Virus record (IMG/VR): IMGVR_UViG_2695420653_000007
Location: 1-16,682 of that record
Reading direction: 5' to 3' (one strand)
DNA: 16,682 bases
DNA from: a virus
Taxonomy: Duplodnaviria > Heunggongvirae > Uroviricota > Caudoviricetes
The notes under the pieces are model-generated. The model was not told where the DNA came from, did not search any database, and was given only the letters and a program-made list of their open reading frames with translations. A program made the position numbers and the translations under genes. Shown piece by piece: positions 10,024 through 12,224 of the stretch. Numbering within the stretch: the first letter of the stretch is position 1; each line of letters starts with the position of its first letter.

Positions 10024-10446
10024 TTACTTAACCAATGATGCTGCATATTCAATTAGGAATAACTTAGGTGCAAGCCAAATCTTCAACCATTCGAAATTGA
10101 AGGCAATAATTAAAACACCCATAATTGAGCCAAATATAGGAACAAATACAGTGCATATATCGTAATAAACCGAAGATATAAAATGTCCATCATTTGGACG
10201 TCCATCGAAAGACGTCCATCTCTCGCCATTATTTCTTGCCGTTCTTGCAAAACTAGGAAGTTTAATTGCTGCAATTAAAAGCAACAATCCAGCCACTTGG
10301 AAAAGTGCGCTATGGACAAAACTCCATATTAGCAACTGATGAACAACATCAGGAATCTGTGCCTGGCTAAATGAAACAGCCGCATCTATTCCATTGCTGG
10401 CTTTTTGCAGTAGTTCTACGAGAATCTTGTTGGCTTGTTCTTCCAT
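10024..10446 (-). CDS. Hypothetical membrane protein (140 aa, about 2 TM segments) immediately downstream of N; SieB-position superinfection-exclusion candidate
   Basis: Track ORF; two long hydrophobic stretches; its SD (GAGGTG) overlaps the N stop codon; position matches sieB in lambda/P22 but no sequence identity established. Confidence 0.6.
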   Translation of the reverse strand: MEEQANKILVELLQKASNGIDAAVSFSQAQIPDVVHQLLIWSFVHSALFQVAGLLLLIAAIKLPSFARTARNNGERWTSFDGRPNDGHFISSVYYDICTVFVPIFGSIMGVLIIAFNFEWLKIWLAPKLFLIEYAASLVK

Positions 10447-10454
10447 ATATCACC

Positions 10455-10754
10455 TCAAATAAGTGGTTTGCTGCCTAATTTCATTTTCTGGCGACCAACA
10501 CAAGTCACCCCCATTTCACTGCGTGGCTTGCGGTAGTAAATATGATTCTGTTTACGCTCGACTTCTTCTGCCTTCTTGCAGCGAAGGCTTCCGAGTGATG
10601 CTGCTTTATCTGCTCTGACGCAACCAGAGAGCTTTAGCGCAATTTTTCGCGCCAGTCGCTGTTCTTGCATTGCCTGCTCACGTTGAGCCTGTCTGCGTGC
10701 TCTGCGGCGATTTCTGGCGTTATCGTCAGCCAGATATGTAATGACTACTGCCAT
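10455..10754 (-). CDS. N: Antitermination protein N (99 aa)
   Basis: Arginine-rich motif near N-terminus (NARNRRRARRQAQREQ); C-terminus YYRKPRSEMGVTCVGRQKMKLGSKPLI closely resembles lambda N C-terminus (WYSKPGERGITCSGRQKIKGKSIPLI, from memory); GGAGG 6 nt upstream; nutL in leader. Confidence 0.85.
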   Translation of the reverse strand: MAVVITYLADDNARNRRRARRQAQREQAMQEQRLARKIALKLSGCVRADKAASLGSLRCKKAEEVERKQNHIYYRKPRSEMGVTCVGRQKMKLGSKPLI

Positions 10755-10861
10755 GTTGACCTCCGATGATTGACTTTGGCGGTGACGCGCCGGGTGCTTA
10801 TCTTCCGGTTGCCGTCGTGCAGCTGCACTTCACGTCACCCCAAAGCCAACTACTCTTTGGT

Positions 10862-10902
10862 TCCCGCATTTCGGCGGGACAATCCCATCAATGTTAAAGA
10901 GC
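10862..10902 (-). promoter_or_regulatory. nutL: boxA (GCTCTTTAACAT, 10891..10902) and boxB hairpin (UCCCGC-CGAAAU-GCGGGA, 10862..10879) on the leftward transcript
   Basis: Same boxA core and identical 18-nt boxB as the site after cro (nutR); correct order boxA then boxB in the N leader. Confidence 0.6.
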
Positions 10903-10948
10903 CTGCCAATCTGTTCCGTTTGGCTTCCAGCGTCCTGCTGATGGCTAA

Positions 10949-11035
10949 AGAATACTGTAGGTATTTTATTGTGTAAATACCCAAGGTATTTATTTTTGGT
11001 GAAATAATGATAAGCAAATGAATACAAAGGATATT
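10949..11035 (-). promoter_or_regulatory. pL/OL region: operators AATACTGTAGGTATT (10951..10965), AATACCCAAGGTATT (10976..10990), AATACAAAGGATATT (11021..11035); putative pL -10 TATTCT and -35 TTTACA on minus strand
   Basis: Three 15-bp sites with inverted half-sites AATAC/GTATT, the same consensus as at OR; -10 overlaps OL1 and -35 overlaps OL2 with a 17-bp spacer, as at lambda pL. Confidence 0.55.
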
Positions 11036-11121
11036 TATTTTTTCGGTGTCTGCTTGTTCAGTGCTTTTTATGCGGGATATGTGAAGTGGATCCCGATAGC
11101 TATTGCTGCCGGGATTATGGG

Positions 11122-11490
11122 TTAGTCAGCGAAGGTTAAGACGAGAATTACCTTAATGATGTCTGCTACAACAGACACGGCCATAGATAAACCAAAGACA
11201 ATCCAAGCCATAGAGATGTCTTCACTACCATCGTATAGAGTTCCGTAATCACTGGTGTAAGGCGTAAATGTCGCGCCTTGATACAATAGGTATAAGCTTG
11301 ATCCATAGAGGATAAATGCAGATATCCCTTGTATTGCTATGATCACCAGAATCATGAAACGAGCTGATCTATGCGCCCAAGCCTGGCTTATTTTTTCTGA
11401 TAGAGATTTCGCAATAAAAGCATGCGCTAAGCCGTAAATTGTCGAGATTGCCAACATCCCAAAAAAGCTTGCTATAGCGGTTCCAACCAT
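11122..11490 (-). CDS. Small integral membrane protein (about 122 aa, 3 predicted TM helices) co-transcribed with cI; rex-position accessory gene
   Basis: Track ORF 11122..11511 trimmed to ATG at 11490 (AAGGGG 7 nt upstream), which lies 18 nt downstream of the cI stop; three long hydrophobic segments; no family recognised. Confidence 0.65.
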   Translation of the reverse strand: MVGTAIASFFGMLAISTIYGLAHAFIAKSLSEKISQAWAHRSARFMILVIIAIQGISAFILYGSSLYLLYQGATFTPYTSDYGTLYDGSEDISMAWIVFGLSMAVSVVADIIKVILVLTFAD

Positions 11491-11507
11491 AAGCGCCCCT
11501 TGCGTGA

Positions 11508-12224
11508 TCAAACCAGCCTTAGTTTTGTCTCAATTGCAACGCCTATAATCTTGCAGTTTCCATTGATTGGCACGAGAGGCCATGCAGGGTTAAGTCCCTT
11601 GAGGTATTTATTTCCGCCGTCGATTATCAGCTTCTTGAATGTTGCTTCGTTAGAGTCAGAAAGTTTTGCTATGACCAAGCTGCCGTTGATCGCCTCCCTT
11701 CCGGTATCGAAAAGAACGAATGTTCCCTCTGGAATGCTTAACCCAACCGGTGCCGTCATTGAATCACCTTCCACTTTAAGCCAAAACGCATTACCTTGAA
11801 TATGCGCGTCAGACTCAAGCCAAACATCTATGTCTTTAATGGTGTATGGTTCGCATGCTTCACACCACGAGCCAGCCTGGATACTGCTTAACACCGGATA
11901 CCTCTTTCCTGCTCTGTATTCCCCTGCATACCTTACGTTGGCATCGCTCTTAAGGCTTTCTGCCTGTTCTGCAACCTTGGCAGCAATTGACTGGCTAAAA
12001 TCAGCAATTGAGACTTGCAACAGTCGTGCAAAACCAGATGCAACCTCAACGTTTAGCGCGTTTCTGCCATTAAGATAATGCCCTACCGCTCCTTGGGTGA
12101 TACCAAGTTCATCAGCAATTGAGTATTGGGTTATTCCCAACTCTTTCTTTTTTGACTCATACAAAGCCTTAAGCCGCTTAGCGTCTTCGAGCTGTTCTGT
12201 CGTCAGTGATTTCTTATTTTCCAT
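11508..12224 (-). CDS. cI: CI repressor (238 aa; N-terminal HTH, C-terminal LexA-like S24 autopeptidase domain)
   Basis: N-terminus LTTEQLEDAKRLKALYESKKKELGITQ parallels lambda cI ([27 protein letters not shown]); C-terminal FWLKVEGDSMTAP and FKKL motifs (catalytic Ser/Lys); no SD before ATG, consistent with a leaderless pRM transcript. Confidence 0.9.
   Translation of the reverse strand: MENKKSLTTEQLEDAKRLKALYESKKKELGITQYSIADELGITQGAVGHYLNGRNALNVEVASGFARLLQVSIADFSQSIAAKVAEQAESLKSDANVRYAGEYRAGKRYPVLSSIQAGSWCEACEPYTIKDIDVWLESDAHIQGNAFWLKVEGDSMTAPVGLSIPEGTFVLFDTGREAINGSLVIAKLSDSNEATFKKLIIDGGNKYLKGLNPAWPLVPINGNCKIIGVAIETKLRLV

What the first reader, a model, noticed from the sequence alone, without database searches (positions are those of the whole stretch)
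10781..10839. Palindromic structure in the N leader, possible RNase III site
Between nutL and the N RBS lies a perfect 12-bp palindrome GTGCAGCTGCAC (10817..10828) nested within a longer inverted repeat GGTGACG...CGTCACC (10781..10787 and 10833..10839). Lambda has an RNase III processing site in the same position that controls N translation.
Basis: partly seen in the sequence, partly recalled or inferred. Interest (0 to 1): 0.35.

Follow-up and report, generated by a model that had tools for sequence, protein, structure and literature searches.

The report
Lambda-type RNase III hairpin before N
The palindrome sits at the tip of a 20-base-pair RNA hairpin lying between the N-utilisation site (nutL) and the start of the antiterminator gene N; this hairpin is the sequence-level counterpart of the RNase III-cut hairpin phage lambda uses to tune N synthesis, so it is a real but essentially known regulatory element.

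Summary
The reported sequences are at the stated coordinates, but the description is too narrow. A perfect 12-bp palindrome is expected about 4 times by chance in this window, and 4 are found. The 7-nt repeat is the core of a 20-bp helix with one bulged G (minus-strand RNA, 10850-10831 paired with 10789-10769). The helix is capped by two small hairpins, and the palindrome is the first of them.

The window is an HK620/phage-21-type immunity region with N on the minus strand. The helix lies between nutL and the N Shine-Dalgarno sequence and ends 4 nt before it.

Lambda's own N leader folds into the same helix with the same sequence at its centre: GGCUUUGGGG...CACC-purine-CCAAAG. I found 156 copies with 43 distinct stems, in front of unrelated N proteins. 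All keep the single bulge. The upper stem covaries strongly: 97% of cells are paired, against 30-44% in slid controls. The apical insert ranges from 38 to 250 nt.

Helix length clusters at 20-22 bp with the bulge central, which fits RNase III substrate geometry. Cleavage itself is inferred by homology and was not shown here.

Verdict: a new member of a known kind, of modest interest. The palindrome hairpin is only weakly supported.

The parts
10949..10977 (-). pL promoter (-35 TTTACA, -10 TATTCT), overlapping operators OL1/OL2. The transcript start is inferred at A10942.
   Evidence: Consensus scan. The HK620 annotation of pL/OL1-3 was transferred by 98.6% identity. The start AUCAGCAGGACGC is shared with the lambda and phage 21 pL transcripts.
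10894..10902 (-). nutL boxA (GCUCUUUAA)
   Evidence: Read directly from the sequence. It lies inside the HK620-annotated nutL. The same boxA is annotated in phage 21.
10862..10879 (-). nutL boxB stem-loop (UCCCGC-CGAAAU-GCGGGA)
   Evidence: Predicted hairpin in the leader fold, inside the HK620-annotated nutL.
10855..10860 (-). Upstream CCAAAG. It can pair locally with CUUUGG (10845-10840) as an alternative to the long helix. After a cut at 10840^10839 this would be a 3'-terminal hairpin on the nutL fragment.
   Evidence: 6-bp hairpin, -4.2 kcal/mol. Equivalents are UCAAAG/CUUUGG in lambda, CCAAAC/GUUUGG in Stx2a and ENT47670 (compensatory) and CCAGAAC/GUUUUGG in phage 21. Its function is inferred.
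10831..10850 (-). 5' strand of the long helix (GUUGGCUUUGG-GGUGACGUG). It occupies the position of lambda nutL boxC.
   Evidence: Folds, homology to lambda +81..+96 and covariation.
10817..10828 (-).
   Evidence: Part of the MFE structure. Stx2a has UUGC-UGCU-GCAA (compensatory), phage 21 has UUGCAGCUACAA (weakened), and other leader types replace it. RNAalifold prefers an alternative GCUG/CGGC pairing. Weakly supported.
10790..10808 (-). Apical hairpin 2, CCGG-AAGAUAAGCAC-CCGG, with a conserved loop and a covarying stem
   Evidence: MFE structure. Stems are UCGAG/CUCGA (phage 21), CCAG/CUGG (Stx2a), CUGCG/CGCAG (L141), UCGCG/CGCGA (L244) and GCCGG/CCGGC (many others), with loop (A/G)AGAU(A/C)AGCA.
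10769..10789 (-). 3' strand of the long helix (CGCGUCACC-G-CCAAAGUCAAU), with bulged G at 10780
   Evidence: Folds. Homology to lambda +187..+203, where A195 is bulged at the same place. All 156 family copies have a 1-nt bulge.
10839..10840 (-). Predicted RNase III cut in the 5' strand (GGCUUUGG^GG)
   Evidence: Homology to the lambda site near +88/+89. That position is from my memory of Steege 1987 and Kameyama 1991 and was not verified with a tool. With the 3'-strand cut it leaves a 2-nt 3' overhang plus the bulged base.
10777..10778 (-). Predicted RNase III cut in the 3' strand (CC^AAAG)
   Evidence: Homology to the lambda site near +197/+198, from memory and unverified. The flanking invariant U-U-U/A-A-A pairs would avoid the G-C antideterminants of the proximal box (rules from PMC3867540).
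10760..10764 (-). N Shine-Dalgarno GGAGG, 4 nt after the helix base and 5 nt before the AUG
   Evidence: Read directly from the sequence. In the family the helix base lies 3-5 nt before the SD in most members.
10455..10754 (-). N antiterminator gene (99 aa, arginine-rich N terminus)
   Evidence: ORF list. Annotated as N in 95-98% identical phages. Weak Pfam N_peptide match, 21 bits, below the cut-off.

Best explanation
The element is the ortholog of the RNase III-sensitive hairpin of the phage lambda N leader, in an HK620/phage-21-type immunity region.

On the leftward pL transcript (minus strand, start about 10942) the order is:
- nutL boxA (10902-10894)
- boxB (10879-10862)
- a 20-bp helix with a central bulged G (10850-10831 paired with 10789-10769)
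- 4 nt later, the N Shine-Dalgarno sequence and AUG

Shown here: the helix exists, is thermodynamically exceptional, is homologous in sequence to lambda's, and is maintained by compensatory evolution in front of many different N genes.

Inferred from lambda: the helix holds the N-Nus-RNA polymerase complex assembled on nutL next to the N ribosome-binding site, so that N represses its own translation. Host RNase III cuts both strands near the centre of the helix, predicted at 10840^10839 and 10778^10777. The cut severs nutL from the N coding RNA and so raises N translation when RNase III is abundant, as in fast growth.

The apical part, including the palindrome, is a tolerated variable insert rather than the target.
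For: Position and context:
- N, nutL, pL, OL and cI were identified by 96-99% identity to annotated HK620, HF4s and others, and 82% identity to phage 21.

Structure:
- 20-bp helix in both the 101-nt and 211-nt folds, z = -3.9 and -3.0.

Homology:
- Lambda's leader folds into GGCUUUGGGGUGUGUG/CACACACC-A-CCAAAGCU at the same place, with a bulge at the same position.
- Phage 21, Sf6/HK633, Cronobacter ENT47670 and an Stx2a phage, all retrieved through the protein rather than the motif, carry it too.

Covariation:
- 156 copies with 43 distinct stems.
- 97.2% of cells paired, against 30-44% when partners are slid.
- 9 pairs with double changes, covering 106 cells.
- Covariation score 0.439 against 0.158 in shuffles (0 of 500 reach it).
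- Frequent G-C/G-U exchanges fit an RNA of the minus strand. The minus strand folds 5 kcal/mol better than the plus strand.

RNase III geometry:
- Helix length peaks at 20-22 bp, with the bulge central (lower 11-12 bp, upper 9-11 bp).
- The idealised E. coli RNase III substrate is 22 bp cut at its centre, with about 11 bp needed on each side (PMC3867540).

Literature:
- RNase III processes the lambda N leader and positively regulates N mRNA.
- N bound at NUTL represses N translation, and the intervening leader is highly structured (PMC9032294, PMC5371410, PMC5725501, PMC8708148).
Against: - No cleavage data exist for this phage, and none could be produced here.
- The exact lambda cut sites are from my memory. 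The primary papers are not in the held library.
- The invariance of the lower stem is partly an artefact of how relatives were retrieved, since the search patterns contained GGCTTTGGG. The 3' arm was chosen by complementarity, which inflates the paired fraction somewhat.
- The conservation pattern (a helix conserved under a free apical insert) fits a purely architectural role as well as a cleavage site.
- The upper stem is G-C rich, and no formal test of proximal- or distal-box rules was possible.
Confidence: 0.78

Rival explanations
1. The helix is only an architectural bridge or ribosome-access modulator. It brings nutL-bound N and Nus factors next to the N ribosome-binding site, or hinders the ribosome itself. 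RNase III cleavage plays no significant part in this phage.
For: - The helix base lies 4 nt from the SD, and boxB lies 11 nt from the other side of the base.
- Apical inserts of 38-250 nt are tolerated as long as the stem pairs.
- PMC5725501 notes that the structured leader may compact the nutL-RBS loop.
- rnc70 results in lambda show that binding without cleavage can regulate (PMC8708148).
Against: - In lambda the homologous helix is cleaved, and cleavage is what relieves repression (cited literature).
- The window keeps lambda's sequence at the centre of the helix.
- The 20-22 bp length with a central bulge fits RNase III.
Confidence: 0.12
2. The 12-bp palindrome GTGCAGCTGCAC acts at the DNA level. 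It would be a protein-binding site, a restriction site (it contains CAGCTG) or a recombination site.
For: It is a perfect palindrome.
Against: - Four such palindromes occur in the window against 4.2 expected.
- It is absent or broken in phage 21, in leader types B, C and D, and in L036, L178 and L021, in front of the same N gene.
- The surrounding conservation is RNA-type pairing with G-U wobbles.
Confidence: 0.02
3. The hairpin is a transcription terminator or pause signal in the pL operon, on which N acts.
For: It is a stable G+C-rich hairpin just downstream of nutL.
Against: - No U-run follows the 3' arm; the next bases are CAUCGGAGG.
- The terminator scan finds nothing on the minus strand. 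The single plus-strand hit is at chance level.
- A terminator directly before N's own start codon would block synthesis of the N needed to overcome it.
Confidence: 0.03
4. RNase III excises the capped upper stem (about 62 nt, 10839-10778) as a discrete RNA with a function of its own, either in trans or as a protein-binding decoy. Its effect on N translation would then be secondary.
For: - Hairpin 2 keeps a conserved loop, (A/G)AGAU(A/C)AGCA, over covarying stems.
- In many relatives the two apical loops are mutually complementary (GCUGAU/AUCAGC, and ACUGAU/AUCAGU in L246).
- In some relatives the apical domain is tRNA-like (Rfam tRNA 35.2 bits).
Against: - Apical domains are swapped wholesale among phages with the same N.
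- The window's version is the shortest and looks degenerate: loop complementarity is only 3 bp.
- There is no evidence that the product is stable.
Confidence: 0.05

Closest known systems
RNase III-sensitive hairpin of the phage lambda N leader (Steege et al. 1987; Kameyama et al. 1991; Wilson et al. 2002)
   Same: - Same order on the pL transcript: nutL, hairpin, N ribosome-binding site.
- Same central sequence, GGCUUUGGGG...CACC-purine-CCAAAG, with the unpaired purine at the same place.
- Same preceding CAAAG.
- Helix base a few nt before the SD.
   Different: - Upper-stem sequence is GGUGACGUG/CGCGUCACC against GGUGUGUG/CACACACC.
- The lower stem is 11 bp instead of 8.
- The apical cap is 41 nt with two small hairpins, instead of about 90 nt.
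- boxB and the N arginine-rich motif are of a different specificity class.
- Cleavage and rnc dependence have not been demonstrated for this phage.
Leader-trailer helix of E. coli rrn operons (boxB-boxA-boxC, followed by the RNase III processing stalk around 16S rRNA)
   Same: A Nus/boxA antitermination signal is followed by a conserved G/U-rich 5' strand (boxC). This strand pairs with a distant 3' strand into a long helix that RNase III cuts. Structure matters more than sequence, and covariation is seen (PMC10250234; PMC8632103).
   Different: - The rrn loop is the 1.5-kb 16S rRNA, and the helix is 25-40 bp.
- Its purpose is rRNA maturation, not translational control of a downstream gene.
- No sequence homology was tested beyond the G/U-rich motif.
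Other RNase III-controlled phage and host 5' leaders (lambda cIII, T7 early sites such as R1.1, rnc and pnp leaders, adhE)
   Same: A hairpin of about 20 bp with a bulge or internal loop lies in an untranslated region, and its cleavage changes translation or stability (PMC5371410; PMC3867540).
   Different: - These sites are not homologous in sequence.
- Several are cut on one strand only, or act by unmasking the RBS directly.
- Here the SD itself is not paired in the main helix.

Membership tests
Lambda-type N-leader RNase III hairpin | Located on the pL transcript between nutL (boxA/boxB) and the N ribosome-binding site | tested here: met
   boxA 10902-10894, boxB 10879-10862, helix 10850-10769, SD 10764-10760, AUG 10754.
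Lambda-type N-leader RNase III hairpin | Long, stable double-stranded stem of about two helical turns | tested here: met
   20 bp plus one bulge. The 101-nt segment folds at -42.2 kcal/mol, z = -3.9. The family mode is 20-22 bp.
Lambda-type N-leader RNase III hairpin | Sequence homology to the lambda helix at its centre (GGCUUUGGGG / CACC-R-CCAAAG, with an unpaired purine) | tested here: met
   Direct comparison of the lambda fold with the window fold, and alignment A1.
Lambda-type N-leader RNase III hairpin | Pairing maintained in evolution (compensatory changes) | tested here: met
   The count of structure pairs on 43 distinct stems gives 97.2% paired, 9 pairs with double changes and 0 of 500 shuffles reaching the score. 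Caveat: retrieval was biased for the lower stem.
Lambda-type N-leader RNase III hairpin | Cleaved by E. coli RNase III on both strands, leaving 2-nt 3' overhangs | not testable with these tools
   Only predicted by homology, at 10840^10839 and 10778^10777. The lambda positions are from memory.
Lambda-type N-leader RNase III hairpin | N expression depends on rnc and on N/NUTL autoregulation | not testable with these tools
   Needs N'-lacZ fusions in rnc+ and rnc- hosts.
Generic E. coli RNase III substrate | No G-C antideterminant pairs at proximal-box positions 2 and 4 next to the cut | tested here: inconclusive
   If the cut is CC^AAAG, the lower-side proximal box is A-U, A-U, A-U, G-C, which fits the rule in PMC3867540. 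Both the cut site and the box numbering are assumed, and the upper side is G-C rich.
Intrinsic terminator | G+C-rich hairpin followed directly by a U-run on the transcribed strand | tested here: not met
   The 3' arm is followed by CAUCGGAGG. There is no minus-strand hit in the terminator scan.
tRNA-like element (as in some relatives' apical domains) | D-arm and T-arm between the two strands of the upper stem; a match to the tRNA covariance model | tested here: not met
   The window has no ARAGORN gene and no Rfam match in 10300-11300 at E <= 10. L213 does match RF00005 at 35.2 bits.
Any curated Rfam family | Covariance-model match | tested here: not met
   Only three chance-level hits, to sau-41, ST7-AS1_2 and SCARNA7, all far below their gathering scores.

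The most novel reading that the evidence does not exclude
The N-leader helix could be a conserved docking frame for exchangeable RNA cassettes. RNase III would then release the capped upper stem as a separate RNA. In some phages that cap is a tRNA-like molecule, whose acceptor stem is the upper stem and which is followed by an unpaired purine plus CCA. In others it is a pair of hairpins with complementary loops. In the window it is a minimal 62-nt version that keeps the conserved hairpin-2 loop.

In parallel, the upstream CCAAAG/CUUUGG pairing would cap the nutL fragment with a protective 3' hairpin after cleavage. The single cut would then create three functional RNAs.
Probability: 0.1. Interest if true: 0.6.

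Novelty: new member of a known kind. Interest (0 to 1): 0.3.

Why it matters
- It places a well-studied lambda control point in the HK620/phage-21/Stx-phage lineage. In lambda, RNase III cleavage of the N leader links N synthesis, and with it the lysis-lysogeny choice, to host growth state.
- The element is unannotated in about 10% of complete E. coli genomes (521 of 5426).
- The comparative data give the element a clear definition: an invariant centre, a central bulged purine, a covarying upper stem and a free apical insert. No Rfam family covers it yet.
- The data also show that 'boxC' of nutL is best read as one strand of this helix.
- For Shiga-toxin phages, which share the element, it marks a host-dependent step upstream of all delayed-early expression.

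Tried and rejected
- Rfam scan of the region: nothing real.
- ARAGORN on the window and on ten relatives: nothing.
- Terminator and promoter scan: only pL, plus a chance-level plus-strand hit.
- The CUS-3 'bsq5 boundary sequence' annotation is simply the whole cI-N intergenic region and is uninformative.
- I could not read the primary lambda papers (Wilson 2002, Wilson 1997, Zhang and Nicholson 1997) or reviews (Court 2007 and 2013, Casjens 2015). Searches for 'N leader' returned nothing useful. The lambda cut sites therefore rest on memory.
- The 14-base pattern scan gave mostly chance hits, about 25 real among 121. The genome scan gave about 30 chance hits in unrelated phyla. Both were filtered by requiring the 3' arm.
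- I first labelled two leader types (E and F) as 'phage-21-like'. Folding the real phage 21 leader showed that it carries the long helix, so that label was wrong.
- RNAalifold on the short-cap subgroup did not recover the palindrome hairpin and chose GCUG/CGGC instead. I therefore do not claim the palindrome hairpin as established.
- DNA-level palindrome function was rejected on chance frequency and lack of conservation.

Full report
**Context**

The window is a lambdoid immunity region. N is a 99-aa ORF on the minus strand (10455-10754). A cI-like repressor lies at 11508-12224 (minus strand), with cro and cII on the plus strand.

The stretch 10400-11200 is 96-99% identical to Escherichia phages HF4s, HZ41, HK620, HK630 and many Stx phages. 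It is 82% identical to phage 21.

I transferred the HK620 annotation to the window (window coordinate = locus coordinate + 9962). This places nutL at 10862-10903, pL at 10942-10977 and OL1-3 at 10950-11013. The consensus scan finds the same pL, TTTACA-17-TATTCT. The transcript start AUCAGCAGGACGC is shared with lambda and phage 21, which puts +1 at A10942. The finding therefore lies in the 188-nt N leader, and the relevant strand is the minus strand.

**The observation**

Two points need correcting.

- The palindrome alone is unremarkable. The window holds 4 perfect 12-bp palindromes against 4.2 expected.
- The inverted repeat is much longer than 7 nt. As RNA, the minus strand forms a 20-bp helix. 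GUUGGCUUUGG-GGUGACGUG (10850-10831) pairs with CGCGUCACC-G-CCAAAGUCAAU (10789-10769), with G10780 bulged.

The helix is capped by a 41-nt junction with two hairpins. These are GUGC-AGCU-GCAC (the palindrome, 10828-10817) and CCGG-AAGAUAAGCAC-CCGG (10808-10790).

The 101-nt segment folds at -42.2 kcal/mol (z = -3.9), and the same helix appears in the fold of the full leader. The helix base is 4 nt from the SD GGAGG (10764-10760), and the AUG is at 10754. The plus strand folds 5 kcal/mol less well because three pairs are G-U.

**Homology to lambda**

The lambda N leader (NC_001416 35582-35345) folds with GGCUUUGGGGUGUGUG (+81..+96) paired to CACACACC-A-CCAAAGCU (+187..+203), with A195 bulged.

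The central 12 nt of the 5' strand and the CACC-purine-CCAAAG of the 3' strand are the same as in the window. So is the bulge position. The preceding CAAAG is also shared. This is homology of sequence, not just of position.

**Family survey**

Eighty IMG/VR loci encode an N at least 94% identical to the window's, yet they carry at least seven different leaders.

- The lower stem is kept.
- The upper stem GGUGACG/CGUCACC is replaced in some by AUUGGAUG/CAUCCAAU or GGUGUGGUG/CACCACACC.
- The cap is exchanged, and in those types the palindrome is gone.

Pattern scans of viral and bacterial genome collections gave 156 copies. Every copy has exactly one unpaired base between the lower and upper stem.

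On the 45-column stem alignment A1:

| Measure | Observed | Control |
|---|---|---|
| Cells paired | 97.2% | 30-44% when the 3' partner is slid |
| Pairs with changes on both sides | 9 | shuffled mean 7.1; 25/500 shuffles reach 9 |
| Cells with changes on both sides | 106 | 27.5 (shuffled mean) |
| Covariation score | 0.439 | 0.158 in shuffles (0 of 500 reach it) |

There are two caveats. The lower stem was fixed by the search pattern. The 3' arm was chosen as the best complement.

To offset this, I retrieved leaders through the protein only. All of them carry the helix, with small differences:

- Phage 21 has GGUUUUGG, giving a U-G pair.
- Sf6 and HK633 have a lambda-type N and a cap of about 200 nt.
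- Cronobacter phage ENT47670 has a P22-type boxB and GGGUUUGG, giving one G-G mismatch.
- An Stx2a phage has a C-A 1x1 loop in place of the bulge.

**Fit to RNase III**

Across 48 distinct stems, total helix length peaks at 20-22 bp. The unpaired base is central, with 11-12 bp below it and 9-11 bp above.

The review PMC3867540 describes the ideal E. coli RNase III substrate as 22 bp, cut at its centre, with about 11 bp needed to reach each distal box. It states that A-U pairs are preferred, and G-C pairs inhibitory, at proximal-box positions 2 and 4.

From memory, lambda is cut near +88/+89 and +197/+198. The corresponding window sites are 10840^10839 and 10778^10777. These sites give the expected 3' stagger, and they place the invariant UUU/AAA pairs in the lower proximal box. 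This step rests on recalled data and assumed numbering, so I list it as inconclusive.

**Mechanism**

The literature held in the library supports four points:

- RNase III processes the lambda N leader (Steege 1987, cited in PMC5371410).
- RNase III positively regulates N mRNA (Kameyama 1991, cited in PMC9032294).
- N with Nus factors at NUTL represses N translation, and the intervening leader is highly structured (PMC5725501).
- The binding-only rnc70 allele affects N regulation (PMC8708148).

By homology I propose the same circuit here. The helix juxtaposes the nutL complex and the N ribosome-binding site. RNase III cleavage disconnects them and raises N synthesis.

The helix, its homology and its evolutionary maintenance are shown. 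Cleavage and its regulatory consequence are inferred.

**The palindrome itself**

It forms the first cap hairpin in the MFE structure. The evidence for it is mixed:

- Stx2a has UUGC-UGCU-GCAA, a compensatory G-C to U-A change.
- Types B, C and D have GCGC/GCGC, GAGC/GCUC and GUGC/GCGC at the equivalent place.
- Phage 21 weakens it (UUGCAGCUACAA).
- Several type-A variants mutate it without compensation.
- RNAalifold prefers an alternative GCUG/CGGC pairing.

It is at best a minor structural feature.

Hairpin 2 is much better supported. It has five different stems around a conserved loop, (A/G)AGAU(A/C)AGCA.

**Relation to boxC**

Nut sites are described as boxA, boxB and boxC (PMC2724277). 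In rrn operons boxC is the conserved part of the 5' strand of the leader-trailer helix, which is the RNase III site (PMC10250234). As I recall it, lambda's nutL boxC is GGUGUGUG, which is the 5' strand of the upper stem. The window equivalent is GGUGACGUG. The covariation shows that pairing, not sequence, is selected there.

**Rivals**

- A purely architectural role cannot be separated from cleavage with these tools.
- A DNA-level role for the palindrome fails on chance frequency and lack of conservation.
- A terminator fails for lack of a U-run.
- A trans-acting excised RNA is possible but unsupported for the window's minimal cap.

**Novelty**

No Rfam family matches. The element is unannotated in the 521 of 5426 complete E. 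coli genomes that carry the window-type nutL and hairpin.

Even so, it is the same device as in lambda, known for decades. I rate it a new member of a known kind, with modest interest. The side observations on the cap are the most novel material: tRNA-like caps, complementary loops and an alternative upstream hairpin.

Noticed in passing
L213 473-599 (-); also L192 3672-3867, L277 5910-6106, L219 6957-7154: In some relatives the cap of the N-leader helix is tRNA-like. L213 matches Rfam tRNA (RF00005) at 35.2 bits, above the gathering score of 29, with a 69-nt insert in place of the anticodon arm. Its acceptor stem is the upper stem of the helix. L192, L277 and L219 carry a canonical T-arm, GCUGGUUCGAUUCCAGC. 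ARAGORN calls none of them. In every family member the upper stem is followed by an unpaired purine and then CCA, like a discriminator base plus CCA.
   Followed up: partly
window 10855-10860 with 10840-10845 (minus strand); lambda +72..+88; phage 21 L002; L363, L364: An upstream CCAAAG can pair with the CUUUGG of the 5' arm, in competition with the long helix. The pairing shows a compensatory change in Stx2a and ENT47670 (CCAAAC/GUUUGG), at the cost of a G-G mismatch in the long helix. Phage 21 has CCAGAAC/GUUUUGG. After an RNase III cut this would be a 3'-terminal hairpin on the nutL fragment.
   Followed up: partly
L061, L110, L171, L210, L233, L245, L246, L276, L298, L300 and other caps of the hairpin: Many caps begin with hairpin UGCGC-AGGCUGAU-GCGC(A) and end with GCCGG-AGAUCAGCA-CCGGC. 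The two loops are complementary (GCUGAU/AUCAGC), and L246 has ACUGAU/AUCAGU. This suggests a loop-loop contact. The window's cap looks like a shortened, degenerate version, with only 3 complementary bases.
   Followed up: partly
L003, L004, L106, L125 (about 210 nt upstream of N): In these loci a segment of about 210 nt is inserted between the helix 3' arm (CCAAAGTCAAT) and CATCGGAGG. It carries a second boxA/boxB-like element (CCCCGUCUAAUUGGCGGGG), a mini-ORF ATG-TGA and a 12-bp hairpin. It is flanked by CCAAAGT repeats, giving what looks like tandem nut modules in one leader.
   Followed up: no
L019, L022, L039, L040, L151 (between hairpin and N); L226 3453-3790 (inside the cap): Small ORFs are inserted into the leader. 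A hydrophobic peptide of about 39 aa (MLDIMTNPILGGLVTTFAICFGF...) with its own SD lies between the helix and N. In L226, a 250-nt cap contains an ORF of about 65 aa.
   Followed up: no
L068, L047, L055, L162 (3' side of the cap): These loci show a pentanucleotide (GTCAC)n tandem expansion of about 17 copies (in L068) and poly-C tracts abutting the 3' arm. They look like slippage-prone sequence inside the leader, or possibly an assembly artefact.
   Followed up: no
window 10455-10754 versus HK620 and phage 21 N: N is mosaic. Residues 1-64 match HK620-type N at 97%, while residues 37-99 match phage 21 N at 95%. The junction lies inside the gene. boxB differs from that of phage 21.
   Followed up: partly
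L213 2396-2560 (-); L192 5997-6054 (+): There is a weak GcvB-like Rfam hit (21 bits, E = 0.31) with a terminator, in a prophage about 1.9 kb from N. There is also a Lambda_thermo (cIII thermoregulator) match at 40 bits, below the gathering score of 50, in L192.
   Followed up: no
window 11122-11511 (-) and 10024-10446 (-): The ORFs flanking the N region have no Pfam match. One is a 129-aa hydrophobic protein between cI and pL (the hkaS position). The other is a 140-aa membrane-like protein downstream of N. They may be superinfection-exclusion or moron genes.
   Followed up: no
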